NCBI GenBank assembly: GCA_026770705.1
Contig: JANJGN010000026.1
Location: 29,264,001-29,328,000, forward strand
Source: Isurus oxyrinchus
Taxonomy: Eukaryota
Direction: 5' to 3'
Length of the DNA stretch: 64,000 nt
Shown one piece after another: positions 2,285-56,233 of this stretch. The notes below the pieces were generated by a model. That model saw only the letters and a program-made list of their open reading frames with translations, ran no database searches and was not told the DNA's origin. Numbering within the stretch: the first letter of the stretch is position 1; each line of letters starts with the position of its first letter. The translations under genes were made by a program, and so were the position numbers.

Positions 2285-2307
2285 CTCACTGACAGTTCCA
2301 TTAAGCT

Positions 2308-10168: not shown

Positions 10169-11019
10169 AATTTTTGCACAGGGGTGAGATTGATCTTCAT
10201 CACTGTGAGTTTGAGAGCGCAGTAATAGACGGCAGCGTCAGTCAGCTGCAGACTGAAGATGGTTAAACTGGTGAGAGTGTTGATGGTCTGGAGCTTTGCG
10301 GAGAAACGGATTCCAAAACCTTCTCCTTTCTGTCCCTGTGTATCCCAGGATCTTCTCAACTCAACAAACTGGGGCTCCTCTTCCGCTTGTTGCCGGTACC
10401 AGTGCAAAGTATAGTAGTTTTCTGCAGTGCTGTAGGTACAGTTTATAGTCACCCCTTCAGCTTCTGGCTTGTTGACTGAAGACTGGGGCTGAGTAACTGA
10501 ATCTCCATCACTTTGATCTGTAACATGTATTCAGGAGGAAGACAAAACCGAGAATTAAAAGGAGACAGTCAAACAATATTAACACTTTATGCGGGATTGG
10601 GGTGAAAGTACGTACTGGAGAAGGGGTTATGGGGGTCGGGGAATGCAAGTAGCGGGTTGGAAGTGATGGAGTGGGGGTGGTGCGGGGTGGTGGTGGGAAT
10701 ACAAGCCGCAAAATGCGGGCACGGCAAATGCGAGGTGGGAATTGGGTGCGTGGAATACGCTCTTAATCCAAGGCATTGAAGAATATGGCGTGGGGGGAAT
10801 AGAATGCGGTGTGTTGAGTAAAATCACAGCCCGTGGTGATAAGGAGGGAACGGCACAAAAGGAGGAGAAAAACATAACAAAGATAGAGAAAGAGAGAAGA
10901 GCGTGAAAAGATGCAAGTGATAAGATATGAACATTTTAGCTTGAACGCGACATGGCTGGACAATCATTCTTACCGACAGTAAGCGTGGCCAACAAAACCC
11001 AAGCACTCCATACCGGCAT
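10169..11019 (-). CDS. Apparently functional TCR alpha/delta V gene segment (leader + V exon + 23-RSS)
   Basis: Leader 11019-10974 (MPVWSAWVLLATLTV, 46 nt, GTAAG donor); acceptor TTACAG. V exon 10517-10208 is open: DQSDGDSVTQPQSSVNKPEAEGVTINCTYSTAENYYTLHWYRQQAEEEPQFVELRRSWDTQGQKGEGFGIRFSAKLQTINTLTSLTIFSLQLTDAAVYYCALK, with Cys23/Trp41/Cys104. RSS CACAGTG (10207-10201)-23-GCAAAAATT. TTGACGCAA CRE-like site ~117 nt upstream of the ATG. Confidence 0.93.
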
Positions 11020-11289
11020 GTCTGCTGCTGAACCCGAACCTGACTGTTCCTTTAAAGACACAAACGCTGAGTGGACATAAACTCACCAGTTGGTCCTTTG
11101 TCCTTTGTCACCTCCGCGTTTCGTTGCTCCTCCCATTGACGCAAAGTTTAATCTAATTGAGATGAGATTTAAATGAGGGTCAAAGATCAGATGAATATTG
11201 TTGACCCACAGCATAAAAAATTGTGTGCGGAGTTACTCACTCAGTGAGCGCAAGCAATGGTGTGAGGGAAAATGGAGTTTTTGTTTAGG

Positions 11290-11575
11290 ATTAGCAAGCA
11301 AGACATTTTTCATTTATACAGTGTTTTGCACGATCGCCGGACGTCTCAAAGCACTTTACCACCAATGAAGTGTAGAAACCGTTGCAATGCACAAAACGCG
11401 CCAATTAATTTGCTCTTAGCGAACTCGCACAAACAGGAATGTGATAATGACCAGGTCAACTGCTTTTTTTTTTTGCAATGTGAGTGAGGGATAAATATTG
11501 ATCAGAACACCAGGAGGAACTCCACAGCTTTTCGCATAAATATTGCCACCGTACAGGGTCTCGTTTTTCCGTTTC
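11290..11575 (-). mobile_element. Deu-domain-type SINE relic (AmnSINE/SacSINE-like)
   Basis: GACGTCTCAAAGCACTTTAC...GAAGTGTAG...CACAAACAG words; related to the + strand relic at ~39130-39395. Confidence 0.5.
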
Positions 11576-12974
11576 ATCTGAACATTTGAAGCTTGTTTAT
11601 GCCTGTCTCAATATTTGTAGGATTCAGCAAAGTAACACTCCTTTCAATGCAATGCAATGCTCCCTCGGCTCTGCAATGGAGTGTCAGTCGTTAATGTTGT
11701 GCTCAGGCTCTCACATTGATTTTTCTCTATTTTCATACCGGCTAAGACGGCTCATCGTTCCATTGTCATGTACGTTTGGGGTTTGCACTGAAGTACCTGA
11801 GGGGTGGGTTTACTTCGGTAGCGATTGTTTTTGAAACAATGAACGGTTTGTGGTTAAGCGGGAACAACTTCCAGAAGATATTTCCAAAAAGAGACCAGGA
11901 GAAATTTCCCCTTGTTTATCCCCAACTGAAGGTGAATCAAATCAGACCCTCCTCCGTCCTGCCGTCAGCCAGTTCGGTCAGTGAGAGTGAGTGAAATGAA
12001 CTGGAAATCTTCATGTACGTTTAAACCTATCCCTTGTCATTTGGAAATATCACCGTCATGTGACTGTGTTTGTAATTTCCCAGCCGAGGTTGCGAGCTCC
12101 TTCTCAAATATCTGACTGAAACTAACAGGAAACTCCATTTCGCTTTGCTGAAATTAATCACATGGGGAGTGAAATGGTCGTTAATGACACAAGATTCAAG
12201 TTCCAACCCTGGCTCCATTACTGTCCACCTCATTCCGGACATCAATACTGATTTCCAAACGTTAGCTTTACACTGTTTTCATCAAGCTTATTTGCTTGAT
12301 GATTTTCATCGTCTGCAAATAATTCATAAGCTTGGCAGGGGGAAATTATGATGATGAACAGCAGAAAAAGGAAGGGCTGCTACTTTGCTGAATCCCAGGT
12401 AAAATGACACAGACACAGGTTTCAAAAGTTTAATCCATTTACTGATTTAGGATGGTCAACATGCCCCGACGGAACAGCAAGAAAAATCTAACCACGGCGC
12501 GCTCTGGCGGATATCACGAGAACATTAGCACTGTTCGGGGACTGGCCGAAAATTGACAGTAAATTATGTCTAGGGGCAGTTTCTAGCGGCAGTTTATCTG
12601 GAGATAAATTGTGATGATGCTGTGGCTGATTGTAATAAAACGTACAAAGATAAAAACAGTTGACTCACTGTTTCCGCTCTCAGATTTGACCTTTACAGAT
12701 CTGCACATTTAACAGCTCATAACGCGTTTTCACAACAAATGTCTCGGTTCCTTTCAGTGCACGTGGAATTAGATGCATGACATTTATTGCACAGATTATT
12801 GCAGATAATCAGTATGGTTATTCATCCAGACAGTCAATAGTCAAAGGTCAAGAGATTATTTCCCCTGTGACTCCCGCAATTTGGTAACCCTGGTAGAAAG
12901 TGATCTGCCTAGTCATGGGGAAAAAGCACTGAGGATCAGACAGAGTGCCGTCCATCTGTCTGTCAGTAAGCAGC

Positions 12975-13548
12975 TTCATAGAGTCATAGTCATATAGGTC
13001 TACAGCACAGAAAAAGGCCATTCGGCCTATCGAGCCTGCGCCAGTCAAACAAGTATCTAACTATTCTAATCCTATTTTCCAGCACTAGGCCCATGGCTTT
13101 GTATGCCATGGCATCGCAAATGCACATCCAAACATTTCTTAAATGTTATGAGGGTATCTGCGTCTACCACACTTTCAGGCAGTGAGTTCCAGATTCCCAC
13201 CACCCTCCAGCTGAAACAACTCTTCTTCACATCTCCGCTAAACCTCCTGCCCCTTACCTTAAATTTATGCCCCTTGGTTATTGATCCCTCCACTAAGGGG
13301 AAAAGTTCCTTCCTGTCTACCCTATCTATTGCTCTCATAAATTTATACACCTCAATCGTGTCCCCCCCTCAATCTCCTATGCTCCAGGGAAAATAACCTC
13401 GGTCTATCCAATCTCTCCTCATAGCTGAAACACTCCAGCCTAGGCAACATCCTGGTAAATCTCCTCTGCACTCTGTCTAGTGCAATCACATCCTCCCTAT
13501 AATGCAAGTTCCAGAACTGCACACAATACTCGAGCTGTGGCCTCCATA
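12975..13548 (-). mobile_element. CR1-clade LINE 3' fragment
   Basis: RPQLEYCVQFW...YEERLDR...YKFMRAIDRVD...VVGIWNSLP remnants and 3' tail. Confidence 0.9.
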
Positions 13549-15005: not shown

Positions 15006-15068
15006 ATTGTAAGTTATTTATCTGTTGTTCGTTCTCTTTCAATGATAACCAGGAAATAATTTCTGTAG

Positions 15069-15402
15069 GAGTTAGTTCGGGAGATTCAGTCAGGCAATGG
15101 CCAACAGAAGCCCGATGACGGGAAGGGTTCTCCTTGAGTATAAATTGTATCTTTTCAACTCCCAATGTGAAGTTTTTCGCGCACTTTTATCGTGAGAACC
15201 AGAACACGGCTCCCTCTGTCGTAATTCAGGCACATTCCTATGAAAAGAAAAACTTTAACTGTCGCTTTTCGGTCATTCTGGAAACATCGAAGAATATTAC
15301 CACTTTCAACTTGGCAGGGCTGCAGCTCGCGGACAGCGCCGTTTTATACTGCATGGTGAGGCTCATAGTGAGACAGGCCTCGGGGCAGCTTGTACCGTTA
15401 CT
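15069..15402 (+). pseudogene. TCR alpha/delta-type V pseudogene
   Basis: Acceptor CTGTAG ends at 15068. Exon reads GVSSGDSVRQWPTEAR*REGFSLSINCIFSTPNVKFFAHFYRENQNTAPSVVIQAHSYEKKNFNCRFSVILETSKNITTFNLAGLQLADSAVLYCMVR; one stop and Trp41 to Phe. RSS CATAGTG (15364-15370)-23-ACCGTTACT (degenerate). Confidence 0.88.
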
Positions 15403-15443
15403 GTGTTTTGCGAAATCAGTGAAAATAAGATGCATTAAACCCA

Positions 15444-19870: not shown

Positions 19871-22800
19871 CATGAACATTCCTTATGTAATATAATCAGA
19901 GATATGGCCCATGCAGTCATAACAGAGACAATACCTGGCCTAATATAAACAGAGATATGTGCTATTGCATTGATAAGACAAACTGGCTCTGGGAATAATA
20001 TGAACAGAGATATATACTAGTTCAGTGACAGCACAAACTGGCCCTGGAGGTAACATAAACAGAGATATGGGCTAGCTCAGGAGTAGCAGTCAGGACCTGA
20101 AATAACTAATAGAATGAACAGGTCTTTGTGAAATCATAATAGCAAAATTGCATTGTAAAGTAAGAACTGAAATAGGTAATAGTGGAACAATAACAGAAAT
20201 AGGGTCAACTTTGTCAATAAAAGAAACATGTTTTTATTCAAAACTAACAGGAAAAAGGTTTACGGGAATAAATATAAAGGTCTTCAAGAGGATTTGAATG
20301 ACAGATAGGCTCTGAATTCAACCAGGAATGGAGTTAGTGCAATGACACTGACACGGCTTAGTGTAATGGCACATAAAAATAGAAAATGCCTGTGATGTTC
20401 TGCAGGTCAGGCAGAATCTAAGGTGAGAAACAGAGTTAACGTTTCACGTTAATGAAAACATATCAGAACCGGGAATCATCAACTTGAAACTAACTCTGTT
20501 TCTCTATTAGGATGTTAAAATCCCGAGCGGCACATTTGGTGCTGCTCTTGCTGCCTGAGCTGTAAGACCTGGGTTCACATTGCACTCCAGGGTTTATTGA
20601 TAATAGAGTGTTCGTGCAACTCAAAGCAGGTTACTAATTAGCCCGCAAAATCCATCCGCCTTTCCACACCTTCCTCCAAGAGTGAAGACATGAAAAATAA
20701 ACAGAAACTTTGTCCACATGTTGAGTCTTTACAGCATCTTCCGTGTGTACTTTAGATTTACAGCATCCTCAGTACGTTACCTTTGTGCTAGTGTAATGGG
20801 ATCTCGGGATCGATCATATCAGCATTAATTGGTGGCACCCCTGAATTAAAAGGAGGTGGGTTCAACACCCAGTTCAGAGACTTGACCACATAACGTGATC
20901 TAATATTCATGAAGATAGTTTATATGTTCTTTCTGTTTTTCATCCGTTATTTCCTTAGATTCGGAAAGAGTGAGGGGAATTAAAGACAGAGCAACTCTGG
21001 GCAGTTTCTCCATCCAGCGAAGGACGGGTTCCTGGGACATTGTTGCTCCTTTGACCTTCGCGGTCACTCCAAAAAAACAAGCAACTTCTCTCTCCTTGGA
21101 TTTGCGAAGAGAGTTCTAACTGCCAGGCCGGACCAGACTGGGCCCTGTCCTCATGATAATCACAGAGTCCGGCTCCAGTGTATCAATAACAGAGGCTGCT
21201 GGTAATCTTACATAAAGGGAGGCAGGAGGCCGAATAAACTTCTGATTGTTATAAGAAGTGAAAGTGTAAGGAAGCAATGATGTTTAGAGCTTTAGCGCAG
21301 GCTTCTCTTTCATGGTGAGGGACACAAGGATTTATGTGGAAAAAGCGGATTGAAAACATCATGACAGAGGCCCGTGTGACTGCCTCCACCTGACTAAGAG
21401 CTTTTATACCCAAGGGGAGGAAATCGTGGCGGATTCCAGAGATTTCTGATAACTGAGGGGTCAATGGTGCATCTGTCAGAGGAACAGAAAATAATCTGCT
21501 CCTTCCCATTCTTACCGACAGTTCTCCACTTACACAGACACACCAGGGCCGGATCCGGCAGCTTGTAGAAACCAATGTTTAAATCTTCAGCATAATGCAC
21601 ATGATGACTGAAAAGATTAAACAACAAAACCACACCAGAGGAAAACTCAGAGCCACAAATGTTAAGGATAATCGTGCATTTTCTAAAGAAGTTCTATCTA
21701 GTGATATTTTGTCCAAAGGAGTGGTTCGTAAATAGTAGTGAACTCCTGAAGGATTCCTGGCAATTATCGCACACACACACTCAAGTGCTGTCAAAAGACA
21801 GGATTAGCAGAAGACGAAATCTGTATAATTATTGCATTTTATTCGGGCTCAATGAAGGACAGAGGAGAGACAGAAAAGGTACTGGGACAATCATATAGGT
21901 GAGCCATTCAATGGGTCCCATTCCCTATAATCGTTCAAATGTTACCCCCTTCAAGTATTTATCTGATTCATTTTACAAAGTTACTATTAGTCTCATTCCA
22001 TCACCCATTTGAAGCTGTGCATTCCAGTTCAGAAGAACTCGCCGTGTAAAAAAAATAAACAATTATCCTCCTGTCTTCTTCTTCAATAAAGTAAATCTGT
22101 GTCCTCTGGTTACGGACCCTCCAGTTAGTTGAAATAGTCTTTCCTTATTCACACTAGCAAAACTTTCATTTTGAACACATGTTTAATAGACACACAGAGA
22201 GATGGAGAGAGATAAAACTGAGCGAAGGAGAGTAAAAATGAAATAGGGAGGCGGAGAAAAACAGAGGAAACAAGTGCCAAGAGTGAGAGACAGTGCGTTC
22301 AGGGACAGTGTGTGTTGGAGGTGGGGGTGGTGTTGGGGGGAGGGGTGGTGGAGAATGACAACGGAAAATGAAAGATAGCAAGATCCCACTTCCCCGCTTC
22401 AGGGACCCAGTGGAGTTCAGTGACTGATCCACTGACCACCCAATTACTCCTGCAATGGAAACTCTAAACAGATCACAACAGGCTCATTTGTAAACGTCAC
22501 CACAATGTGGTCTGTGTGACTCTGTCCTGACTCTGTGGCCAGATATAAGCCGCCGTGACAGATGTTCTCACCAGATTGTGGCCCCTGGATTTATTTTCTG
22601 CTCAGAAGTGAGATGTGCGGTTTGGAACCGGCAGCAGAGAAAAAGGAAGTTGTGTTACCTGAGAATGAAACAGCAGGAGTCAGTTTCATGTTATCACCGT
22701 GAACAGTCTTCCTGCCTGTGAGGGTGAACTCATTCTGACAGCATCAAGAACAACCACACAGATTGCTGTTGGTTTTAGCATTGTATTCACCTCCATTCCA

Positions 22801-23433
22801 AATTTAAATAATTAAATGCATGGGATTGCTTTGGTTATAACTGAAGGGGAGGTGGATTGAAGGTTATCATTGGGAGAAAAGAGGGGAAATTAAAACATTA
22901 ATTTCACTCACAGGGGATTATTCTAAAATAGAAAATTTTAAGTGAGGTCGTTGTTGTCTGAGAGAAAGAGAGAAGAGAGGATAATTGACTGAGCTGGTGT
23001 CTTTCTGACACTGAATTTTCCTCTGATGAGGTTTTCGTGCTTAATCTTTTCAGTGATAATGTGCCTTAAGCAAAAGATTTAAACATTTGCGCCTCATAGC
23101 TGCCAGAGGTGCCCTTGTGAGTCCGTGTAAGTGAGTGAGGTGAAGTACGAGAGAGAAGAGAAGTTAACTGATTTAGGTGTAGTCTGAGACAGAGAAAGAG
23201 AGGGAAGAAGTTCAGTGAGTCATTTGAAAGATGTATTTACCTTGGTAACGGAATGGCCAGCTTGACATTACTTTCCAGAGCACGCAAAACAATGCATTTC
23301 CGATAAACATTAACGGCCACATAGGAACTGCAAGTCTATTCTCAATAAACTATCATAACGTGCTGAAAAATAATTGTAATGTCTTTTGCAAGCAGGCTAA
23401 CCCGCCTCCACAACCACACATACAGCTGCACAC

Positions 23434-23571
23434 NNNNNNNNNNNNNNNNNNNNNNNNNNNNNNNNNNNNNNNNNNNNNNNNNNNNNNNNNNNNNNNNNNN
23501 NNNNNNNNNNNNNNNNNNNNNNNNNNNNNNNNNNNNNNNNNNNNNNNNNNNNNNNNNNNNNNNNNNNNNNN
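23434..23571. other. Assembly gap (138 N)
   Basis: Run of N. Contiguity and orientation across it are not guaranteed. Confidence 1.
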
Positions 23572-24179
23572 AGGAGTATTGACCATTAGGTCCCTATGGC
23601 CGCCCTTTCGCCTGAAGAAGCTGTTTCAGACTCTGTCTCTCACAATCAGTGGCCATGCCAAAAGCAAAAATAATTCCTATTGGAAAAGTGAAAAAAAATC
23701 TGAAAATTTAAGAAAAATGTGAGCAATTGCCACAGATCAACTCAAGTATAAATTAGTCATCCCGAACACAATGCAGTTTGTGACTAAGTTGTGCAGTGTG
23801 GTTCACCTCTATTTCTGTTCCTCAGTCTCACTGATCAAGAGAATGTTACAAGATTCATCCCAACCTTTCAGCACAAACATTACACACATTACACTGGAGC
23901 AATTAGAAATTTCACACAACACCTAATAGCTATAAACAAAACTAAACATATTCTTCCAACTCATTTCGCCTACAGGAATATATTTTTAAAATAATTAATA
24001 CCCACCTATCCTCCTGGCTGTCTCCCTATCTCGAACTAGTTAGCACAGACCTTTTATAGTGCAGTAATAACTGAGACCCGGTCTAGCATATTAATAAATG
24101 GGATAGGACCTTTTTAACATAAGGTGAGGCATAGAAGAGTGCAGTAATGAATGGAGCAGTCTAATACAGTAATGTCACA

Positions 24180-25295
24180 GAATCTTAACGGCCCATCGTG
24201 TCTGCAGCGAATCTCCAAATGAACATTCTGACCGACTGCCATTGACCTGGCTTTTCCCCGTACCCTTGCAATTTGTTTCTATTCAAATAATCATCTAATG
24301 CCCTCCTGAATGCCAGAATTGAACCTACCTCCACCACACTTGCAAGCAGTGCATTCCAGACCCGAACGACTCATTGTGTGAAAAAGATTATTTCTCATGT
24401 TACATTTGTTTCTTTTGCAAATCACTTTAAATTTGTGCCCTTTCGTTCTTAATCCTTTTACAAGTGGGATCAGCTTCTTAATATTTACTCTGTCCAGCCC
24501 CCTCATGATTTGGAAAACTTCTATCAAGTTTCCTAGCAGCCTTCTCCTCTCCATGGAAAACAATCCCAACGTCTCCAATCTACCCTCAAACGCTGAAGTC
24601 CCTCACCCCTGGAACATTCTTGTAAACCTCTTCTGCACTCTCTCCAATGTGTTCACATCCTTTCTATAATATGGTGCCCAGAACTGTACACAATATTCCA
24701 GCTGAGGTCTAATGAGGGTCTTAAATGAATTCAGTTTAACCTCCCTGCTCTTGTACTTTAAGTCCCTTTTAAAAGGGCCCAGATAGTATTTGTTTTATTA
24801 ACTGCTCTCTCCACCTGTCCTGCCACCTTCAATGATCTATGCACATATACACCCAAGTCTTTCTGTTGCTGCAACCCCTTCAAAATTCCGCCCCTTATTT
24901 TATATTGTCTGTCCACGTTCCTCCTACCAAACTGCATCACCTCACACTTCTCCACATTGAACTTCATCTGTCATCTATCTGCCCACTCCACCAACTTGTC
25001 TGTGTCCTCTTGAAATCCCACATTGTCCTCCTCGCAGTTCACAACATTCCCAAGCTTCGTATCATCCACAAACGTTGAAATGGCCCTCTGTACACCAAGA
25101 TCGAGATCCTTAATATATATCAGGAAAAGCAAGTGTCCCAATGCCGACCCCTGGGGAACTCCACGACAAACCTTCATCCAGCCCGAGAAACATCCAATGA
25201 CCAATACCCTCCACTTCCTATTTTTCAGCCAATTTTGTATCCATGTTGCTACTGCCCCTTTTATCCCATGAGCAATAATTTTTCTCACAAGTCGG
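24180..25295 (-). mobile_element. CR1-clade LINE fragment (RT domain)
   Basis: GVPQGSALG.LLFLIYI.DLD...FVDDTKLG, MKFNVEKCEVM and LIEVFQIMRGLDRV remnants; flanked by satellite relics. Confidence 0.92.
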
Positions 25296-25569
25296 TTGTG
25301 AGATGAATCCTAATATAATACAAACAGAGACTTTGTGCTATGCAACAGCAGCTCAGAAATTGTCACTTGCCGCATATATAGAGGCACAGCTATGTGCATT
25401 AATAAACGAAGCAGAATATAATGTAATATAAACAGAACATAGTCTAGTGCAGTAATAACTGAGAAAGGGTCAGCTGTAATGTATATAGAGGCATGGCCCA
25501 GTGCATTAATAAGTTCAACTTCAGATAGTGTTACATACACAGATACAGTGAGAGGAGAAAGATCAAAGG

Positions 25570-25995
25570 AAAAATGTTAAGTAATAGGAAAAGCTAATAG
25601 AATGTTATCATTTATTGTGAGGGGAATTGAATACAAAAGTAGGGATGTTATGCTTCAGTTATACAGGGCACTAATTGAGATCACGTTTTGAGTACTGTGC
25701 ACAGTAGTGGTCACCTTATTTAAGGAAAGATGTAAATGTGTTGTAAGCAGTTCAGAGAAGGTTTATTAGACAATGGGTTGGACAGGCTCGGCTTTTATCT
25801 TCTGGGGTTTAGAAGAGTAAGAGGCAACTTGACTGAAACATATAAGATCCTGAGTGGTCTTGACAGGGTGGATGTGGAGAGGATGTTTCCTCTTGTGGGA
25901 AAATCTGGAACTAGGGGTCACTGCTTAAAAATAAGGGGTTGCCCATGTAAAACGGAGAAGTGGCGCATTTCTTTCACTCTCAGGGTCATGAGCCT
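25570..25995 (+). mobile_element. CR1-clade LINE fragment
   Basis: LDRLGFYLLGFRRVRGNLTETYKILSGLDRVDVERMFPLVG. Confidence 0.88.
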
Positions 25996-26266
25996 TTTTA
26001 TTCCTTTTTATAACTTTTTTCCCAAATCCCTACCACACCCACAAAAGGGCCATCTGTTACTTGTTCCATGTTGTTCTTTCACATTGTGCTGATTCTGGTT
26101 CTGCTATTAACACATTCTGCTTTCTTACCTTTATGCCACTATCAGCACCTTCTTTAACCTTACCACTACCATTAACACTCCCTTTGTCTTCTTGCCCATG
26201 ATACATTTCTCAGTCCCACCTTACTCCCACCTATTTCTTGCCTTCTACCTAACCTCATCTGCTCCA

Positions 26267-28736
26267 AAACAAAAACAGAATTACCTGGAAAAACTCAGCA
26301 GGTCTGGCAGCATCGGCGGAGAAGAAAAGAGTTGACGTTTCGAGTCCTCATGACCCTTCGACAGAACTTGATTTCGAGTCCAAGAAAGAGTTGAAATATA
26401 AGCTGGTTTAAGGTGTGTGTGTGTGGGGGGTGGAGAGATAGAGAGAGAGAGAGGTGGTTGTGTAGACAAACAAGCAGTGATAGAAGCAGATCATCAAAAG
26501 ATGTCAGTGACAATGGTACAATAGAACACATAGGTGTTAAAGTTAAAGTTGGTGATATTATCTAAACGAATGTGCTAATTAAGAATGGATGGTAGGGCAT
26601 TCAAGGTACAGCTCTAGTGGGGGTGGGGGGAGCATAAAAGATTTTAAAATATTTAAAAATAATGGTAATAGGTGGGAAAAGAAAAATCTATATAATTTAT
26701 AGGAAAAAAAAGGGGGAAACAGAAAGGGGGTGGGGATGGGGGAGGGAGCTCACGACCTAAAGTTGTTGAATTCAGTATTCAGACTGGAAGGCTGTAAGGT
26801 GCCTAGTCGGAAGATGAGGTGTTGTTCCTCCAGTTTGCGTTGGGCTTCACTGGAACAATGCAGCAAGCCAAGGACAGACATGTGGGCAAGAGAGCAGGGT
26901 GGAGTGTTAAAATGGCAAGCGACAGGGAGGTTTGGGTCATTCTTGCGGACAGACCACAGGTGTTCTGCAAAGCGGTCGCCCAGTTTACGTTTGGTCTCTC
27001 CAATGTAGAGGAGACCACATTGGGAGCAACGAATGCAGTAGACTAAGTTGGGGGAAATGCAAGTGAAATGCTGCTTCACTTGAAAGGAGTGTTTGGGCCC
27101 TTGGACGGTGAGGAGAGAGGAAGTGAAGGGGCAGGTGTTACATCTTTTGCGTGGGCATGGGGTGGTGCCATAGGAGGGGGTTGAGGAGTAGGGGGTGATG
27201 GAGGAGTGGACCAGGGTGTCCCGGAGGGAGCGATCCCTACGGAATGCCGATAAGGGGGGTGAAGGGAAGATGTGTTTGGTGGTGGCATCATGCTGGAGTT
27301 GGCGGAAATGGTGGCGGATGATCCTTTGAATGCGGAGGCTGGTGGGGTGATAAGTGAGGACAAGGGGGACCCTATCATGTTTCTGGGAGGGAGGAGAAGG
27401 CGTGAGGGCGGATGCACGGGAAATGGGCCGGACACGGTTGAGGGCCCTGTCAACGACCGTGGGTGGAAAACCTCGGTTAAGGAAGAAGGAGGACATGTCA
27501 GAGGAACCATTTTTGAAGGTAGCATCATCGGAACAGATGCGACGAAGGTGAAGGAACTGGGAGAATGGGATGGAGTCCTTACAGGAAGCGGGGTGTGAGG
27601 AGCTGTAGTCGAGGTAGCTGTGGGAGTCGGTGGGTTTGTAATGGATATTGGTGGACAGTCTATCACCAGAGATTGAGACAGAGAGGTCAAGGAAGGGAAG
27701 GGAAGCGTCAGAGATGGCCCACGTGAAAATGATGGAGGGGTGGAGATTGGAAGCAAAATTAATAAATTTTTCCAAGTCCCGACGAGAGCATGAAGCGGCA
27801 CCGAAGTAATCATCGATGTACCGGAGAAAAAGTTGTGGAAGGGGGCCGGAGTAGGACTGCAACAAGGAATGTTCCACATACCCCATAAAGAGACAGGCAT
27901 AGCTGGGGCCCATGCGGGTACCCATAGCCACACCTTTTATTTGGAGAAAGTGAGAGGAGTTGAAGGAGAAATTGTTCAATGTGAGAACAAGTTCAGCCAG
28001 ACGGAGGAGAGTAGTGGTGGATGGGGATTGTTCGGGCCTCTGTTCGAGGAAGAAGCTAAGGGCCCTCAGACCATCCTGGTGGGGGATGGAGGTGTAGAGA
28101 GATTGGACGTCCATGGTGAAGAGGAAGCAGTTGGGGCCAGGGAACTGGAAATTGTTGATGTGACATAAGGTGTCAGAGGAATCACGGATGTAGGTGGGAA
28201 GGGACTGGACAAGGGGAGAGAGAAGGGAGTCAAGATAACGAGAAATGAGTTCTGTGGGGCAGGAGCAAGCTGAGACGATTGGTCTACCAGGGCAGTTCTG
28301 TTTGTGGATTTTGGGTAGGAGATAGAAGCGGGCCGTCCGAGGTTGGGCGACTATCAGGTTGGAAGCTGTGGGAGGGAGATCCCCAGAGGAGATGAGGTCA
28401 GTGACAGTCCTAGAAACAATGGCTTGATGTTCAGTGGTGGGGTCATGGTCCAGGGAGAGGTAGGAGGAAGTGTCTGCGAGTTGACGCTCAGCCTCCGCGA
28501 GGTAGAGGTCAGTGCGCCAGACAACAACAGCACCACCCTTGTCAGCTGGTTTGATGACAATGTCAGGGTTGGACCTGAGAGAATGGAGTGCAGTAAGTTC
28601 AGAGAGAGACAGGTTAGAATGGGTGAGAGGAGCAGAGAAATTGAGACGACTAATGTCGCGCCGACAGTTCTCAATGAAAAGATCAAGAGAAGGTAAGAAT
28701 CCAGAGGGAGGGGTCCAGGTGGAGGGAGAATATTGG
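26267..28736 (-). mobile_element. Young 5'-truncated Penelope-like retroelement (RT + GIY-YIG endonuclease) with 10-bp TSD
   Basis: Uninterrupted ~660-codon ORF with KPADKGG, GVAMG, RYIDD (RT) and NLVYCIRC..C...YIGET (GIY-YIG). ATCTGCTCCA is duplicated at 26257-26266 and 28737-28746. Host is an older opposite-strand Penelope 3' end (~26000-26266 + 28747-28930). Confidence 0.95.
26331..26364 (-). ncRNA. Minimal hammerhead-ribozyme-like motif of Penelope 3' end
   Basis: CTGTCGA-AGGGTC-ATGAG-GACTC-GAAAC-GTCAAC: CUGANGA-like core (A6 variant), stem II and GAAA. Confidence 0.5.
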
Positions 28737-28795
28737 ATCTGCTCCACCCCGCTTAAACAGTATAAATGTCATCACATTTTGACTTCTCCTTAGCT

Positions 28796-31340: not shown

Positions 31341-31344
31341 CACA

Positions 31345-32690
31345 GGAAAAAGGCAAAATATCATGTATGCTGGAAACCTGAAACAAAAACAAAAAGCACT
31401 GGAAAACTTCAGCAGGTCTGACAGAATCTGTGGAGAGAAAGACAGAGTTAACGTTTCGAGTCTGTGTGACTCTTCTTCCGAACTGAAGAGAAGTAAAAAT
31501 ATGATGAAATGTATACTGTTTAAGGAGGTGGGACAGGTGAAGCTGGATAGAAGGCCAGTTATAGGTGGAGGCAAAAGGGAGCTTGCAGAAGATGTCAGAA
31601 ACAGAAGGTCAAAGAGGTGTTGATGGCATTGATGGTGGTGACACTGGCTAAAGGATGTACTAACTGTGACATTAAGAGTAGAAAGTAGGATGAACAAGCG
31701 ACAGATGGCCCTGGTGGGGGTGGGGTGGGGGAGGGGACAGTGTAGGAAAAAAGATCGAATTAGGCTAAAAGGTGCAGATGAAACAATTAGTAAAAATGGA
31801 ACTAAATTTTTAAAATAATAATCATAAAAATAGGTGGGAAAAGTATGTATATAAAGATTAAAAAATAAAGATTTGAGAAAAGGAGATCAAAAAGAGGTGA
31901 AGATGGGGGAGGGAGTTCATGATCTGAAGTTGTTGAGCTCAATTTTAAGCCAGAAGGCTATAAAGTGCCTAATCAGAAGATGAGGTGCTGTTCCTCCAGT
32001 TTGCGTTGAGCTTCACTGGAACTTTGCAGCAGGCCAAGGACAGATATGAGAGCAGGGTGGTGTGTTAAAATGGCAAGCGACAGTATGAGCCATGCTTGTG
32101 GACAGATCAAAGGTGTTCCGCAAAGTGCCACCGAGCCTGCACTTGGTCTCTCCAACGCACTAGGAGCAACGAATGCAGCAGACTAAATGGAAGGAAGTGC
32201 AAGTGAAGCATTAGTATCAATGAGTTGTTGGAGTTTGCATTCCTTTGTGCTTGCAAAGAAGAGAAAAAGTTCCTTGTTAAGGTGTCGGATGAGACTAAGA
32301 ATAAAATGAAATGGGGAAGGACAGCTTTGAGGCAGGGTAAGCCAATAGTGCTGGAGGGAGAGGTCGAGTGTGTTCATATGGCGGTGCATGGCACTGAATG
32401 TGGATCTCAGTATGCGGTGAGAACAGCAGTTTGAGGAATGTTGTATGTCCCAGAGAAGCCTGTAATCCTGGGTGGATTTGAAACATGAGGGATGGAACTT
32501 CAGTTGGAATCCACATGGGGTAAGTCAGAGATGGAGACAGTCACTGAGGAAGCAAATACGGCTGTGAAAGTGAGTTTTAGTAAATACCTTGTCAAGCGCC
32601 AGGAGGGAAATGGAATGAATGAAGGTGAACAGGGCAAAAGAGACAAGCGGAAATCCTATCAGAGAGGAGAGCAGCACTTCCTCAATTGAG
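31345..32690 (-). mobile_element. Internally deleted Penelope-like copy (putative ORF N-terminal region fused to GIY-YIG/3' end)
   Basis: 32690-32205 encodes sequence absent from the young copy (KTHFHSRICFLSDCL, HMNTLDLSLQH, KECKLQQL). It joins directly to the GIY-YIG C-terminus (SEAQRKLEEQHLIF) and 3' tail with a hammerhead-like motif at 31447-31481. Confidence 0.75.
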
Positions 32691-34468: not shown

Positions 34469-34469
34469 T

Positions 34470-37400: not shown

Positions 37401-38962
37401 TAAACTGAGGCAGGGCATACTGAGGTGATTACTGCTATGGGGCCTAAATTAATCTAAACTGAAACAGGGTCTAGTGCAATGATTACTGAGGTTGATATAA
37501 ACTGAGGCAGAGTATAGTGCAGTGATTGCTGATACAAACTGTTAATTAGTATAAACCGAAAAGGGGCTGGTGCAGTGAGTACTGATACAGCAACTAGATT
37601 AATATAAACTGAGGCATGGTGGTTGCAAAGATTACTGATACAGGGCCTGGAATAATATAAGCTGAGACAGATTCTACCGCAGTGATTACTGATGCAGGGT
37701 CTAGATTAATAAAAATTGATACTGGGTCTAGTGCAGTAATTATTGATTCAGGATCTAACTAATATAAACTGAGTCAGGGCCTAGTGGAGTGTTTACTGAT
37801 ACAGGGCCTAGATGAATATAAACTGGGACAGGGGCTAGTGGAGTGATTACTTATAGAGGGACTAGATTAATATAAACTGAGGCAGGGCCAAGTGCAGTGA
37901 TTACTGATACAGGTCTTGATTAATATAATCTGAGGCAGGGCACAGTGCAGTGATTACTGATACAGGGTCTAGATTAATATAAACTGAGACATCGCCTTGT
38001 GCCATGATTACTGTTACAGGATCCAGCTTAATATAAACTGAGACAGGATCTAGTGCAGCGAGTACTGACACAGGGTCCAGGTCAATATAAACAAATACAG
38101 TGTCCATTGCAGTGAATACTGGTACAGGGTCTAGATGAATATAAATTGAGGCAGGGTCCCGTGTAATGATTACTGATGCAGGGTGTAGACTAATATAACT
38201 TGAGTCAGGCTCTAGTGCAGTGATTACAGATACAGGGACTAGGTTAATATAAACTGAGACATGGTCGAGTGCACAGATAACTCACAAAAGTTTTAAATCA
38301 ATATAAACTGCGAAAGTGTCTAGTGCAGTGATTACTGATACAAGGACTAGGTCAATAGAAACTGAGACAGGGTCTGGTGCAGTGATTACTGATTTGGGGT
38401 CTGAACTAATAGAAACTGAGAAAGTGTCCAGTGCAATGATTACTGATACAGCATCTGGATTAATATCAACTGAAACACGGTCTCGTACAGTAATTACTGA
38501 TACAGGCTAATACAAACTGATACAGTGTCTAATGTAGTGATTGCCGAAACAAGGTATCAATTAATATAAATTGAGACAGGGCCTAGTGCAGTGAGTACTG
38601 ATACAGCCTCTAGGTTAATATGAACCGAGACAGGGCCTAGTGCAGTGATTACTAATAAATGGTCTGGGCTAATATAAATTGAGACGTATAGTGCAATGAT
38701 TACTGATACAGGGTCTAGACTAATATAAACTGAGACAGAGTCTAGTGCAGTGATTACTGATACAGGTTCTAGACCAATATAAACTGAGACAGTGTCTAGT
38801 GCAGTGATTACATGTATAGTGTATGGATTAATATAAATTGAAGCAGGGTCTTGTGCAGAGAGTACAGGTACAGGGCATAGATTAATATAAATTGAGACAG
38901 GATCTAATTCTGTCATTTCCGATACAGGGTCTAGATTAATGTAAACTGAGACAGGGTCAAGT
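34470..38962 (+). repeat. 54-bp minisatellite array (right part)
   Basis: Same 2x27-bp unit repeated over ~4.5 kb. Confidence 0.95.
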
Positions 38963-39129
38963 GGAAGAATTACTTCATCAGTGATGCCCATATCCCAAGG
39001 ACGAGTTAAAACACTGCATAACACTGTGGATTCTGGAAATCTAAAGCAAAACAAAAAAATACCAGTCAGCAGGTCAGTAGGCATCAGTAGAGAGAGAAAC
39101 AAGTCAAACTTTCAGGTCGATGACAGGTG

Positions 39130-43846: not shown

Positions 43847-44377
43847 ATGGCCAGAAGGAAGAGGTCGGCGATTTTTCTCAGTTTGTTGCTGACTTTTCTT
43901 ATCCCGTGAGTAGTTTTTATTGCCCAAGTCTCTCACTGTTACTGTCTCAGTGCTAATCTTTCTCTCTGGAATTTTACAGAATCAGGAATCATTTCATCAG
44001 GATTAACCTGCGGGTTTTTGATATATTTTTACAGGTGTCCAGTCGGATGTTGTGTTCAGTCAGCCAGAGGCACAGACCGGGCGTTCCGGAGGCTCCCTGA
44101 GACTGACCTCTAAATCCAGCGGCTTCGATCTTGGCAGCTACTGGATGTTCTGGATCCGACAGGTTCCCGGACAGGGGCTGGAGTGGCTCCTTGATTACAA
44201 AACTTCATCCAGCAGCACTACGCCCCAGGAATTAAGAATTGATTTACTGCGTCCAAAGACACTTCAAGAAACATCTTCTCCTTGGACGTGACGAACCTGA
44301 AGACTGAAGACACCGCCATCTATTACTGTGCAAGATAAAACAGCGAGAGGAATCAGGGCTGGACTCGAACAAGAACA
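43847..44377 (+). pseudogene. IGHV: IgM VH pseudogene with leader and damaged 23-RSS
   Basis: Leader RSAIFLSLLLTFL (out of phase by 1 nt, donor at 43906). Exon from 44035: [51 protein letters not shown]...(frameshift)[38 protein letters not shown]; Cys23 to Ser. RSS AACAGCG (44339-44345)-23-ACAAGAACA. Confidence 0.95.
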
Positions 44378-44747
44378 GATCGGGAGGGACTCAACAACTT
44401 CCATCGTAACCTGACAGTCAGTACTTGTTTTAAATGTAATATTAACTTTAATGATCAGAACCAGAAAACAAGCCGCTTCTGACAAAAGTAAAACAGTAAA
44501 TTTAATAGTAAAACCTAACAAACCAACCGATATAATGGGCTGAGTTTTGGGCTGTGTTTATATTTAATGTAAATAGTTTCCTCAGTTACAGACCTGGATA
44601 TAATGTTAATTTTAATATGCCTAACACTTGGAGGGGATCTCTGTTCATTGAGTTTTGTAAGTTGTTTTTTCAATACTAAACTGCATCAGAAATAAACGTC
44701 TATTTGAAGTGAATATTGAGAGGCAGCACTGAACAGAGAGTGGGTGT

Positions 44748-44823
44748 AGTTTTTGTGCGGGTGTATTTCATTGTGCTCAGTGGGTGGCTGGATGTCACAG
44801 CTGTTACTGTCAATACAAAAACC
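44748..44823 (+). other. Single DH segment flanked by 12/12 RSS (probable joined D1-D2)
   Basis: AGTTTTTGT-12-CATTGTG | CTCAGTGGGTGGCTGGATGT (44776-44795) | CACAGCT-12-ACAAAAACC. Confidence 0.9.
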
Positions 44824-45153: not shown

Positions 45154-45240
45154 AGTTATTGTATGGCACAGCCCAGGGACTGTAACACTGTGACGCAAAG
45201 GACTACTGGGGACAAGGGACGGTGGTGACGGTGACTGCAG
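45154..45240 (+). CDS. IGHJ: JH segment with intact 23-RSS
   Basis: AGTTATTGT-23-CACTGTG (45186-45192); coding 45193-45240 AKDYWGQGTVVTVTA; GTAAG donor at 45241. Confidence 0.95.
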
Positions 45241-46419
45241 GTAAGAACCATGCACTTGTTTGGTAATTGTTTTAGTTGAGTCTTTGTTTTATATTTTTAT
45301 CTATTTTTATAAGTCATTCGTTCACTGAAATGTGGATTTGGTGGATTCTGTATTGAAATTTTTAAATAATGTTTCAAATGATTCTGCTGAAAAAGGTTTT
45401 TATAATTTGGCTGTTTCTCGACAAAAAAGTGCTGCTGAGGGATTCAGTCCCTGGTTGTTGTGATTTGGTGTTTATCTGCTGAAGATACTGTGCAGCAGGG
45501 CTACCTGAAATACCCAACGTTTGTTAAAACAGTTTGACGTTTCTGCGATGTTTAATCTCGGTGATATCTAATGGCTGTGGGTTTTACCGTCTACTGAACA
45601 ACGGTTTAAATATGTTTGAAATCAAACCCAATGTTAACAAAATATGCTTAAATTCCAATGTTAATTTAATGAACATGCTCCTCCTCACAATGTTGGTGCC
45701 ATTATTCCATATGTCTGTTTGGTTTAATTATTCATTCATTTGGTGACGAGCGAGTTGTCTGGATTCGATGTTGAGATTCTCTTGCAATGTTCCATTGGAT
45801 TCTGTTTCTGTTGGAAGTGCTTGTTCAATTGAGCTGCTTCTCCATAAAACGGGGTTCAGCCCCTCAGTGATATGATTTGGTGTTTTTCTGCTGAGGAGAT
45901 TGTGTGTCTGGGTGACTTTGAACAAGTAGAATTTATGAAACGGTTTGGCTGTTCTGCAGTGTTTCTGCTTTGTTTAACCTCGGTGACATTGAGCGGTTAC
46001 ACGTTTTGTGATTGAATGAAACAGCCTTCGCGTTTGTATCTGCTTGAAGTGCCATTGTCGGCAGAAAACAGAGGCTTCAGAAAAGGGGAAAAAACGTTTA
46101 AAGATGTGTTAGAACATCTTGTTTTTATTTTAAGTGATAATTGCAGATTAATCTAAACCATGGATCATTCAGAACATCATTCGTTACTGCAATCAGAAAC
46201 TACATAATTTACAAGTTTTCAAATTGTAGAGTAAAATTAATATAATTCCAGCAATTATAATGTGGTAAAATTTCTCCATATTGACGGAACAGCTTTTGTA
46301 TTAACATAATTGATCATCAATCTTTTTTTCTCAATTCTGCTGTGCACTGCGCACAATTAACATGATCGGAAAAGTTTTTAGGCTGGAAACAGTCACTCAC
46401 CATCAATTACTCGCTCAAA

Positions 46420-49814: not shown

Positions 49815-50114
49815 CGACACCGTCTTCGCCCAGTCTCTGCAGCCTGGTCTCCTCCTGTCAGCAACACAACACCGACGGCTCCGTCACCTACGGCTGTTTA
49901 GTGATGGACTACGCCCCAGAAATCACCAGCCTGACCTGGAAGAAAGATGGGCAGCCGATCACCACTGGATTTAAGACTTACCCGTCAGTGAGAAACCAAA
50001 AGGGAACCTACAGCCTGAGCAGCCAGTTCACCTTCCCCGAGTCAGAGGGAGAATGCAGCAAAATCAAGTGTGAGGTTCGACACAGCGGCTCAGACAAGAG
50101 CGTTGAAATGCAAT
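49815..50114 (+). CDS. IGHM: IgM CH1 exon (open frame)
   Basis: [59 protein letters not shown]...[18 protein letters not shown]; AG/GT intact. Confidence 0.93.
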
Positions 50115-50327
50115 GTAAGTGTTGGGGAACCTGTGAGAAACAGAAAGGTTGTGATTAACCTGTATAGGGCCTTGGTTATAACGCATTAATAGTGCTCTGC
50201 ATAGTTCTGATCCCTGGAAATTCCAGGTTAGTGTCTATTAACGGAAAAAGCCTGTTAAAATATACGAACCCATTGTATCTGTTATAAATTTCTTCTGCAA
50301 GAAATGTTTAACCTGTGTTTTTTGAAG

Positions 50328-50638
50328 ATCCTGAAACCTTCCCTCCAACTGTTCTCCTCACCATGAGTTCCCGGGAAGAAATCACAACCAACAAATTTGC
50401 AACCGCCGTCAGTTCAATCATCGATTTCCGTCCGAAGTCAATCACCGTAAAGTGGCTGAAGAATGGACAACCCATGGATTCAGGAATTGTCACCTCTCCC
50501 GCCTTTGAAGTGAACGGGAACTTCTCGGCGACCAGTCGCTGAAAGTCTCCGCTGCGTATTGGTTCACCGACTCGGTCTCTACCTGTCAGGTCACTCACCA
50601 AGGGGTCACCCAAAGTCGAAACGCCACCAAGTGTGGGG
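50328..50638 (+). pseudogene. IGHM: IgM CH2 exon (disabled)
   Basis: [11 protein letters not shown]...[23 protein letters not shown]...FSATSR, then a 1-nt frameshift near 50538; first Cys to Ser. Confidence 0.92.
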
Positions 50639-51046
50639 GTAAGAAATAAAAACGGAGGAAGCAATAGAGCATTCTGCTCTCCGATGTTAATCAAATCAGG
50701 AATTTATTAAAGATGGTAACAGCTTCGGGACAGAGTGTTTGAAAGTGTATCCACCCTATTATAAAACAGCTTTCAGTACTGCATTCCAGGGCCCAGGAAT
50801 GATACATTTGTATAGGGACTGGGGCAACGCAGATTCATCAGAATGTTACCGGGGCTGAAGGACTCAAATTATGAGAATAATTTACCCAGACCAAGCTGGT
50901 TTTGCATTGTGTAAAGAAGATTAAAGACGATAGTTACAGGTTAATGTGTCGAAGGTGATATATTCTCCTTTAGAGAGTGAAGACTGAATACTGCTGTCCT
51001 AATTCTGAATGTGAAACTTTGGTTGATTTTCATTTCTGTTTCACAG

Positions 51047-51354
51047 AACATTCCCAGTGCAGCGATCCCACAATTACTCTACTGTCACCGTTAATAGAAC
51101 AGGTCTTACTGTAGGCGACGGTGACATTAACCTGCATCGTTTCTAATGCCCTTATGGAGTCCTTGTGTTCTGGACCCAAGAAAAGAAGCCTTTGAAATCA
51201 GAGGTTGCTGTCCAACCGAGAGAGGATCACAACAGCGTGGTCAGCAACGTAAACATCTCGACACAAGCCTGGCTGAGTGGGGCTGAGTTCTACTGCGTGG
51301 TGAACCATCAGGATCTGCCGACTCCTTTAAGAAGTTCCTTCCACAAGGAACGAG
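51047..51354 (+). pseudogene. IGHM: IgM CH3 exon (disabled)
   Basis: TAG at 51112-51114 and a 1-nt deletion near 51150; remainder reads WTQEKKPL...[20 protein letters not shown]. Confidence 0.92.
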
Positions 51355-52062
51355 GTGAGCGGTGAGATTGAAGCAATAAGTGAGTCATTGTGTCTATTTC
51401 CAGTGTAAGGGTCAATATTTAATATTGAGTGCATTAAGGTCCACTCCGATTGGTATTTCCAAAACCTAAACCCTCTGGGCCTGTAGACTTCAGGGGGAAA
51501 TTGATAAGTAGATGAATGAACAATGAATTGAAAGCTGTGCTACTGGGTTTAGATGAAGCAAGGTGGGAGGAGCCTGGTGTGGAGCTTAAACACCAACACA
51601 GACCAGTTGGGCCGAATGGCCTGTTTCTGTGCTGTAAACTTTGAAAAACTTTCTCGTCCAACCCCATAGGTTCTTAATGAAAATGATTGTGTCCATCTCT
51701 GCTCCGATGTGGAAAACTGGACAGATCCCAAAGTGCTTTATTAATTAATTCATGGGATGTGGGCGTCACTGGCTCAGCCAGCGTTTATGGCCCATCCCTA
51801 ATATCCATTGAGAAGGGGGTGATGAGCTGCCTTCTTGAACCGCTACAGTCTATCTGGTGTGGGCACACCGACAGTGCTGTTAGGGAGGGAGTTCCAGGGT
51901 TTTGGCTCAGCAATAGTGAAGGAACGGTGCTATATTTCCGAGAAGTAGATAATGTAAACCTTTTATATTCATCACAAAACACATTTCTCTCACATTCAAC
52001 CAGCCGTTTCATTATCTCCGAAATTCTCCAGTTTATTGACATTTATTGTACATTTTCTGCAG

Positions 52063-52454
52063 TTAAAAATCCACGGGAACCGTCCGTGTCTGTCCTCCTG
52101 CCCTCGGCAGAAGATGTCTCCACTCAGAGGTTCGTCTCCCTCAACTGCTTAGTGAGAGGTTTCTCCCCGCGAGAGATCTTCGTCAAGTGGACTGTCAATG
52201 ACAGGCCGGTGAATCCCGGGAACTACAAGAACACTGAGGTGTTGGCGGAGAACGGCAATAGCTCCTTCTTCATGTACAGCCTGTTATCCATTGCAGCGGA
52301 GGAGTGGGCCAGCGGCGCTTCTTACTCCTGTGTGGTGGGACATGAAGCGATCCCCTTGAAGATCATCAATAGAACTGTTGATAAATCCAGCGGTGAACCG
52401 AATTTTGTGAACATTTCCCTTGCACTGATGGACACCGTTAATTTATGTCAATAA
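52063..52454 (+). CDS. IGHM: IgM CH4 exon plus secretory tail (open frame)
   Basis: [14 protein letters not shown]...[18 protein letters not shown]...[43 protein letters not shown]; AATAAA at 52482-52487. Confidence 0.95.
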
Positions 52455-53410: not shown

Positions 53411-53859
53411 TTAACTCACTGGACTCTCAGTCCCTGAGCAGAGAATCTGGAAGGGAACAGGCCTCCACTGTAAGGACCCAGTTGCCAATAGCACACGTCA
53501 GCTTCCAGCTTACTGGCCACAGGCCTTATCTTCCAACATGCTGAAAATGTAAAATATATATTTATGCAGCGTTTTAAAAAAAGTTTTAACACTCTTGTTC
53601 CTATTGACCTGATGCTAACATTGGTTTCTTATAATCCGAATCGAAACTGGTGACTGAATCCTCCCTGCGTTTTTCATGGTTCTTCTCTGAATTTGAGAGG
53701 CGTGCCGTTGAATTTTTGCATTCATTCACCTGATATCACCTTGCATCACACAGAAAACACGCTTATATACAGAACATTGAAAATATTCACTAAAAGTTTC
53801 ACCGTCAGGGTCAGACTCGATCATTGCTACCTGATGAAACTTGGAAAAATAATAATAAT

Positions 53860-54960: not shown

Positions 54961-55037
54961 ACTAAAGAACAACACAGACGCCATGGAATTGAAGAAATTA
55001 TAATTCAAATGTACTTTTTTAACGGGCATATTCTCCA

Positions 55038-55470
55038 GCAAAAACAAAAAATGCTGGAAAAACTCAGCAGGTCTGATAGCATCTGTGGAGAGGAAGACAA
55101 TTAACGTTTTGAGTCCGAATGACTCTTCTTCAGAACTATAGAGAAGTAAAAATGTGGTGACATATAAACTGTTTAAGTGGGGTGGGACCGGTGAAGCTGG
55201 ATAGAAGGCCAGTGATAGGCGGAGGCAAAGGAGAGATTGCGAAAGATGTCATAAACAAAAGGTCGAAGGGGTGTTGATGGTGGTGTTACTGGTTAAAGGA
55301 GGTGCTAATGGTGACATTAAGAGTAGAAAGCAGGATGAGCAAGTGACAGGTGGCCCTAATGGGGTGTGGGAGTAAAGATCAAAATAGGCTAAAGTGTGGA
55401 GATAAAACAATGAATGGAAATATCTTTTTAAAATAATAATAATCTAAATGGGTGGGAAAAATATATAAAA
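55038..55470 (-). mobile_element. Penelope-like 3' end fragment
   Basis: Matches the 3' tail of the 26267-28736 element; hammerhead-like motif at 55101-55133. Confidence 0.8.
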
Positions 55471-55959
55471 AAATATTCTCCGGCAATTGCCTCGATTACA
55501 TAATGACCAGATAAACACACTGAAACAATATTCTTACTGAGAAACTGATTTAAGTTAATGACGCACCAAACATTCCCATCACAAATAGACAAGCAAGATG
55601 GGAAATCACATCCGAGCTTTTAAAAAGCAACGTTAACTATTTCCAAATAAGTAGCTCAGTGAATCTCTCTCAATATCCATCATAATAATCTCCAATAATA
55701 GATCATACGAAATTGTTCGAAAACAAACTGATGCTGAAGAAAAGTTGCCACATTTTCCGACTTGGGCTGTACGAGGAATGGAAAGGAGAGATAGTCACAG
55801 AGATAGGTTACTGAGATTCACGAACTTAACAGTACATATACATTGAACATTAAATTAGAGAATACATTAATAATTTAGGAAAGAGTAAAGAGAATATTGA
55901 AAAAGATATCCAAGATTGATAAACAATCTAATTGTATTTTCTCGGCTATATCCTCGTAG

Positions 55960-56233
55960 ATACCAATGGTGGCATCTGGATTGAAGACTCTGAGGATGAT
56001 AACGGCAACATCTGGACAACCGCTTCCACTTTCATCATCCTGTTCTTCCTGAGCATTTTCTACAGCGCTGCCGTCACTCTGGTGAAGGTGAGAAGATTCA
56101 ATCCATTCACACTTCAAACTGACGAAGCAGTTTGAAAAATCTCTCAATGTTTCATTGATTAAAACTCTAACATAAATGTCCCAGATCATAAACATCTGCT
56201 TCATTATTTTATCCTTTTTTTCAGATCAAGTGA
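55960..56233 (+). CDS. IGHM: IgM transmembrane exons TM1 (55960-56087) and TM2 (56225-56233)
   Basis: DTNGGIWIEDSEDDNGNIWTTASTFIILFFLSIFYSAAVTLVK + IK*; canonical splice sites; AATAAA at 56657 and 56693. Confidence 0.93.

What the first reader, a model, noticed from the sequence alone, without database searches (positions are those of the whole stretch)
10169..56233. A whole IgM cluster lies within ~30 kb of TCR alpha/delta-type V genes
Seen: TCR-type V segments (to 15.4 kb) and a complete IgH cluster (from 43.8 kb) in one window, separated only by repeats and one 138-N gap. Known: sharks make IgHV-TCR delta chimeric rearrangements, and IgH-derived segments are reported at their TCR alpha/delta locus. 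Inference: this is a snapshot of how IgH clusters land beside, and are cannibalised by, the TCR locus.
Basis: partly seen in the sequence, partly recalled or inferred. Interest (0 to 1): 0.7.

Follow-up and report, generated by a model that had tools for sequence, protein, structure and literature searches.

The report
Dead shark IgM among TCR segments
This is a broken shark antibody (IgM) gene about 29 kb from T-cell-receptor V segments, one of some 36 such neighbours in a 17-Mb array that likely grew by copying both together; the arrangement is already published for other sharks and rays.

Summary
Five TCR alpha/delta-type V segments (one intact) lie 28.5 kb or more upstream of an IgM minicluster. 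The join across the N run is real: both flanks are adjacent in 38 of 39 paralogous copies. The cluster has every part but is a pseudogene, with frameshifts in leader, VH, CH2 and CH3, a dead VH heptamer and D1-D2 fused. It is not a lone arrival. Scaffold C26 holds 38 Cmu4 exons interleaved with 107 or more TCR-type V hits over 23-40 Mb, and the nearest V is upstream in 31 of 36 clusters (median 47 kb). This points to co-amplification in place. Flajnik et al. 2025 (PMC12227049, table S1) list the same alternation in great white shark and stingray. A side finding is more interesting: 575 kb away on the same gap-free stretch is a second TCR-delta unit (TAILV-D-9J-Cdelta, about 90% identical to the canonical locus, no Jalpha/Calpha), seen also in a related species' contigs.

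The parts
1890..2290 (+). TCR alpha/delta-type V pseudogene with RSS (heptamer at 2245, 24-bp spacer)
   Evidence: broken frames; block 1635-3938 is collinear (70-78%) with the unit at C26:29.67 Mb
3243..3592 (-). TCR alpha/delta-type V pseudogene, 2 in-frame stops, intact 23-RSS
   Evidence: 49% to the 10-kb V; 1 TAG, 1 TAA
5497..5850 (-). TCR-type V pseudogene, broken frame, RSS with 24-bp spacer
   Evidence: homologous to an intact V at C26:29,258,671
10169..11019 (-). Intact TCR alpha/delta-type V gene: leader from 11019, V exon 10208 to about 10517, 23-RSS from 10207
   Evidence: Pfam V-set E 6.6e-15; 66% to the V of P0001; best TCR hit in the PDB is a human Vdelta1 chain
15041..15360 (+). 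TCR-type V pseudogene, 1 stop, no RSS found
   Evidence: Pfam V-set weak (E 1.6e-4, under cut-off); family members lie 13-15 kb upstream of the conserved block in 3 of 4 other clusters compared, in opposite orientation
20325..26264 (+). Non-coding block that belongs to the amplified IgM unit; spans the 138-N run
26263..28768 (-). Reverse-transcriptase retroelement (672-aa ORF; Penelope-like by recalled motif), inserted in this copy only
   Evidence: Pfam RVT_1; flanks contiguous in 3 of 4 paralogs compared; 96% copies nearby
29062..38963 (.). 54-bp satellite arrays (29062-31333, 34516-38963), also present in paralogous units
43847..44380 (+). IgM leader (1-bp insertion near 43893) and VH (1-bp deletion near 44216); RSS heptamer AACAGCG, predicted dead
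44748..44823 (+). Single 20-bp D between two 12-RSS: D1-D2 fused, about 380 bp with both inner RSS missing (likely germline RAG join)
45154..45241 (+). 23-RSS and JH (WGQG motif, splice donor intact)
49816..52454 (+). Cmu1 (open), Cmu2 (frameshift near 50537), Cmu3 (frameshift near 51149), Cmu4 plus secretory tailpiece (open)
55960..56233 (+). IgM transmembrane exons (TM1 open)

Best explanation
The window is one repeat of the elasmobranch antigen-receptor complex: a pseudogenised IgM minicluster lies beside TCR alpha/delta-type V segments, likely because IgM clusters and their V-bearing upstream flanks were duplicated together many times along this chromosome arm. SHOWN: the parts, the lesions, the physical join, about 36-38 sister clusters interleaved with TCR-type V segments over 17 Mb, and a TCR-delta D-J-C unit 575 kb away. 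INFERRED: repeated segmental duplication with local inversions built the array (shared upstream blocks at 75-86% identity; several clusters 98-99.96% identical); D1-D2 were joined by RAG in the germ line; the copy then decayed by birth-and-death. This copy's VH is predicted unable to recombine, so it feeds neither IgM nor TCR-delta. The intact TCR V lies 3' of, and in the same orientation as, the nearby Cdelta, so by the 12/23 rule a join to that D would end on an excised circle; its usable partner, if any, would be the canonical TRA/TRD on unplaced scaffold C242.
For:: 38 Cmu4 exons on C26 at 24.0-40.0 Mb; all 150 scored TCR-V hits lie on C26 (23.1-40.3 Mb) or 8 small scaffolds, 6 of which also carry Cmu4; one of these (C242) holds the canonical TRD/TRA; nearest V hit upstream in 31 of 36 clusters, median 47 kb, 26 of 36 within 60 kb against 12.5 at random; the block across the N run is contiguous in 38 of 39 copies; collinear upstream block in 4 of 4 clusters compared; 36 of 38 other C26 VH exons are open while this one is broken; at least 10 sister loci show D or J fusions; the same alternation published in other elasmobranchs.
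Against: The V-bearing part (1-20 kb) is not collinear as one block with any of the 4 paralogs compared. The 15-kb V is inverted relative to its relatives, and the closest relatives of the intact V are only 73-75% identical in DNA. So co-duplication is old or reshuffled, and a single fixed 'V+IgM' unit is not shown. The V list is a lower bound from top-scored hits and copies are not independent, so the P values are descriptive only. Some near-identical clusters may be uncollapsed haplotypes, which would inflate the count.
Confidence: 0.82

Rival explanations
1. One reading: an IgH cluster moved in beside the TCR locus and is being stripped to supply an IgH-type V for TCR-delta.
For: Constant exons are broken; a TCR-delta D-J-C with TAILV segments is 575-620 kb away with no further gap; three other array loci keep VH and RSS but have lost Cmu1-4.
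Against: This VH is frameshifted with a dead heptamer; it nests among the array VH and far from TAILV; its flanks match dozens of local copies, so there is no sign of arrival from elsewhere. IgM clusters on C38 carry a different VH family (66% identity to one fetched copy).
Confidence: 0.06
2. IgM clusters and TCR V segments are old neighbours in one complex, and each expanded separately. The adjacency reflects ancestral linkage and spacing constraints, not co-duplication.
For: No long collinear block joins V to IgM in the 4 paralogs compared; V orientation differs. Ancestral linkage is argued in PMC12227049.
Against: The same V family sits at the same 13-15 kb offset from the IgM upstream block in 3 of 4 paralogs and at many more by coordinates; 31 of 36 nearest V hits are on the upstream side.
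Confidence: 0.1
3. Scaffolding misjoin at the N run, or the V segments are orphons unrelated to TRA/TRD.
For: The array is highly repetitive, and parts of the complex (C242 with TRA/TRD, C88 with PSMB5) are unplaced.
Against: Flanks adjacent in 38 of 39 paralogs; the V family also lies upstream of the canonical TRD/TRA on C242; 23-RSS present.
Confidence: 0.02

Closest known systems
Elasmobranch antigen receptor complex, AgRC (Flajnik et al. 2025, PMC12227049)
   Same: IgM miniclusters, many marked 'pseudo?', alternate with TCRa/d V and NAR-TCR V over megabases. Great white chr27 has a TCRaV ending at 9,094,955 and IgM starting at 9,135,551, about 40 kb apart. The text states that TCR alpha/delta-type V exons lie between IgH clusters.
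   Different: The paper used gene models (11 IgM rows in great white) and does not quantify the V-IgM spacing or propose co-duplication in the parts read. Its table lists no second delta-only D-J-C unit. Here the array holds 36-38 clusters on C26.
Shark IgM minicluster VH-D1-D2-JH-Cmu (nurse shark; PMC2435157, passages read)
   Same: Segment order, about 400-bp spacing, RSS types, four C exons, tailpiece and TM exons; pseudogene clusters and germline-joined genes are reported.
   Different: This copy has D1-D2 fused and four frameshifts.
[quoted passage not shown] 2019; paper not held, known here through PMC12227049 and recall)
   Same: An IgH-type V close to TCR segments.
   Different: The window's VH keeps its own D, J and C and is dead. 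TAILV-like segments exist elsewhere (C26:29.934-29.936 Mb; C242:582-585 kb) and form their own clade.
Second TCR-delta loci of birds and amphibians (duck 'TCRdelta2' seen in a search abstract, PMC5278385; otherwise recalled)
   Same: Applies to the side finding: an extra delta D-J-C unit with an IgH-like V and no alpha segments.
   Different: The shark copy is a 62-kb, about 90%-identical duplicate of the canonical TRD core that sits inside the IgM/TCR-V array.

Membership tests
Elasmobranch IgM minicluster | Leader-VH-D-(D)-JH within 2 kb, with 23/12 RSS | tested here: met
   one fused D instead of two
Elasmobranch IgM minicluster | Four C1-set exons, secretory tailpiece, TM exons | tested here: met
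   collinear with an open-VH paralog at C26:31.217 Mb
Functional IgM gene | Open frames and a CAC heptamer at VH | tested here: not met
   indels in leader, VH, Cmu2, Cmu3; no VH RSS passes
TRA/TRD V segment (10-kb V) | V-set exon with split leader and 23-RSS | tested here: met
TRA/TRD V segment (10-kb V) | Closest relatives are alpha/delta V and lie with TRA/TRD | tested here: met
   P0001 is an automatic gene model, not a sequenced transcript; no tree against beta, gamma or light-chain V was built
TRA/TRD V segment (10-kb V) | Found rearranged to Dd or Ja in transcripts | tested here: inconclusive
   no RNA holder listed
AgRC | IgM clusters linked to TCR-delta D-J-C | tested here: met
   same scaffold, 575 kb, no further N run
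AgRC | Linkage to TCR Calpha, IgW and PSMB5 | tested here: inconclusive
   Calpha is on unplaced C242; PSMB5 is on unplaced C88 among divergent IgH C exons; scaffold ends show no overlap
AgRC | UrIg2 and IgNAR in the linkage group | not tested
   not searched
TAILV | IgH-like V without its own C, next to delta D, usable RSS | tested here: not met
   (feature list partly recalled)
Germline-joined Ig gene | Inner RSS pair and intervening DNA gone, coding ends fused, outer RSS kept | tested here: met
   inheritance not checked in a second individual, so a somatic origin in the sequenced tissue is not formally excluded

The most novel reading that the evidence does not exclude
The IgM/TCR-V array around this window is served by its own second, delta-only TCR locus (C26:29.875-29.937 Mb: TAILV, D, 9 J, open Cdelta, no Jalpha or Calpha), apart from the canonical TRD/TRA. 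Intact IgM VH genes and NAR-TCR cassettes on its 3' side (for example VH at 29.721 Mb, 207 kb from D, opposite strand, 23-RSS) would reach it by ordinary inversional recombination in cis. That would explain how IgHV-TCRdelta chimeras form often while TCR-alpha stays free of them, and the IgM+V repeat would be the unit by which this locus gains V segments.
Probability: 0.25. Interest if true: 0.65.

Novelty: new member of a known kind. Interest (0 to 1): 0.3.

Why it matters
As posed it matters little: it is another instance of a published arrangement, and this IgM copy is dead. The numbers add modest detail (TCR V segments travel on the upstream side of IgM clusters). The nearby delta-only TCR unit matters more. 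[quoted passage not shown]

Tried and rejected
Misjoin: rejected. C26 and C242 Cdelta as two alleles: rejected, 84-93% DNA identity over 62 kb. Calpha on C26: none among 48 candidates scored, and no J array in the 160 kb 3' of Cdelta. Placing C242 or C88 by end overlap: no informative overlap. Expression of the intact V: no RNA holder listed; says nothing either way. A J-to-TM spliced transcript from the C-less IgM loci: no such joint in 4 runs of contigs from a related species; contigs do not show absence. Protein search for named relatives of the intact V at its own length gave 1 hit among 3 candidates. Deiss 2019, Ott 2021 and Criscitiello 2010 are not held in the library, so whether they mention a second Cdelta is unchecked. 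Searches that showed no listing for a second shark TRD: (titles and abstract openings only). The supplementary PDF of PMC12227049 was not read. Look-ups of earlier scan notes near the window and by words were empty.

Full report
1. Setting. The window is G000:C26:29,264,001-29,328,000 in a 5.0-Gb genome. Its Ig and TCR genes match those of sharks and rays.

2. TCR V segments. RSS and frame scans give five TCR-type V segments between 1.9 and 15.4 kb, in mixed orientation. Four are broken. One, 11019-10208 on the minus strand, has a leader, splice sites, an open V exon (Pfam V-set) and a 23-bp RSS. It is 66% identical to the V of P0001. The C region of P0001 is shared with NAR-TCR-type gene models P0004-P0007, so I read it as Cdelta (inference). 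The best TCR hit in the PDB is a human Vdelta1 chain. All 150 scored genomic relatives (of 1328 candidates) lie on C26 at 23.1-40.3 Mb or on eight small scaffolds, among them C242, which carries Cdelta, a long J array and Calpha.

3. IgM cluster. Leader 43847, VH 44036-44336, one D at about 44776-44795, JH to 45241, Cmu1-4 at 49816-52454, TM to about 56233. Against a paralog with an open VH (C26:31.217 Mb) it has single-base indels in leader, VH, Cmu2 and Cmu3, and the VH heptamer reads AACAGCG. About 380 bp from D1 to D2, with both inner RSS, is missing and the D ends are fused, the pattern expected of a germline RAG join. Of 38 other C26 VH regions fetched, 36 have an open V exon, and at least 10 show D-D, D-J or full VDDJ fusions. 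Germline-joined and pseudogene clusters are known in sharks (PMC2435157, passages; PMC2193156, search listing).

4. The join. Both flanks of the 138-N run are adjacent and co-oriented in 38 of 39 non-self copies listed (40 of 582 candidates scored). By coordinates these copies lie upstream of an IgM VH in the same orientation (18-34 kb in the six cases worked out). The run is the only one in 696 kb. The misjoin test fails to refute the linkage.

5. The array. One search lists 38 Cmu4 exons on C26 at 24.0-40.0 Mb; 36 have a VH partner. Against 107 TCR-type V positions pooled (a lower bound), the nearest V is upstream of VH in 31 of 36 clusters, median 47 kb; 26 of 36 are within 60 kb against 12.5 at random. 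The window's 29 kb is the second shortest. In 4 of 4 other units compared, window 20.3-26 kb is collinear; in 3 of 4 a relative of the 15-kb V lies 13-15 kb upstream, inverted; in the fourth, window 1.6-3.9 kb is collinear. Against this reading: no single long V-to-IgM block is shared, and 12 pairs of clusters are 98-99.96% identical, so some copies may be assembly duplicates.

6. Mechanism. Shown: anatomy, lesions, linkage, array. Inferred: co-duplication with inversions, germline D-D joining, later decay. The window's VH nests among the array VH (83-91%) and away from TAILV (66-71%; bootstrap not fully settled). With a dead heptamer it should not serve TCR-delta. The intact TCR V is 3' of and co-oriented with the nearby Cdelta, so a 12/23 join there would yield an excised circle (established rule; inference).

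7. Prior knowledge. [quoted passage not shown] PMC5931798 (passages) added nothing on locus layout. The finding is therefore a new member of a known kind.

8. Side finding. C26:29,874,636-29,936,615 is collinear with C242:582,226-644,579 at 84-93% identity. It holds two TAILV-like segments (one open), a D with 12/23 RSS, 9 J, and open Cdelta and TM exons, and it stops short of the Jalpha array that starts near C242:660 kb. In contigs of a related species, one run guessed to be RNA, with loose ends at the exon borders, holds two Cdelta versions. At five diagnostic sites one keeps the C26 letters and the other the C242 letters; at four further sites both have the C242 letters. Two DNA-sized runs showed only one version where covered. 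Mustelus asterias gene models also show two Cdelta types (not followed up). Six literature searches showed no listing for a second shark TRD, but three key papers were not held.

9. Verdict. Observation real with corrections, interpretation partly supported, interest 0.3. The delta-only unit deserves its own follow-up.

Noticed in passing
G000:C26:29,874,636-29,936,615 (L020-L026): Second TCR-delta unit (TAILV, D, 9 J, open Cdelta and TM), about 90% identical to the canonical one on C242, with no Jalpha or Calpha after it; both versions appear in a related species' contigs.
   Followed up: partly
L073, L074, L075 (C26:34.57, 37.55, 32.31 Mb), first 2.3 kb: Three IgM loci with VH and 23-RSS, a fused D-J behind a 12-RSS, and Cmu1-4 deleted so that J lies about 700 bp before the TM exon; two have an open V. 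J donor and TM acceptor look intact and in frame, so a V-only membrane chain or a C-less VH donor for TCR-delta is possible. No J-TM joint seen.
   Followed up: partly
L107, L111 (C26:24.43 and 27.18 Mb): Two fully germline-joined VDDJ IgM genes with an open V and the same junction.
   Followed up: no
C26:29,721,336 (L086, L149): IgM VH with open frame and 23-RSS, 207 kb from the delta D on the opposite strand: a candidate donor for inversional VH-Ddelta joining.
   Followed up: no
C26:29,842,360-29,850,963 (L017-L018): NAR-TCR V plus supporting Vdelta on the plus strand, 3' of the second Cdelta.
   Followed up: partly
window 26263-28768: Recent reverse-transcriptase retroelement with a 672-aa open frame, inserted only in this copy of the unit.
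   Followed up: partly
window 29062-38963: 54-bp satellite that sits between the conserved block and VH here and in paralogous units.
   Followed up: no
G000 C38, C42, C49, C100 and others: A second large set of IgM clusters with a different VH family (44-55% amino-acid identity to the window VH) and no TCR-V hits among those listed.
   Followed up: no
P0004-P0008: Mustelus asterias gene models on five contigs carry two distinct Cdelta sequences, a hint of several delta C genes in another shark.
   Followed up: no
G000:C88:776,169-776,922 (L153): PSMB5 among divergent IgH C exons on an unplaced scaffold, probably the far end of the complex.
   Followed up: partly
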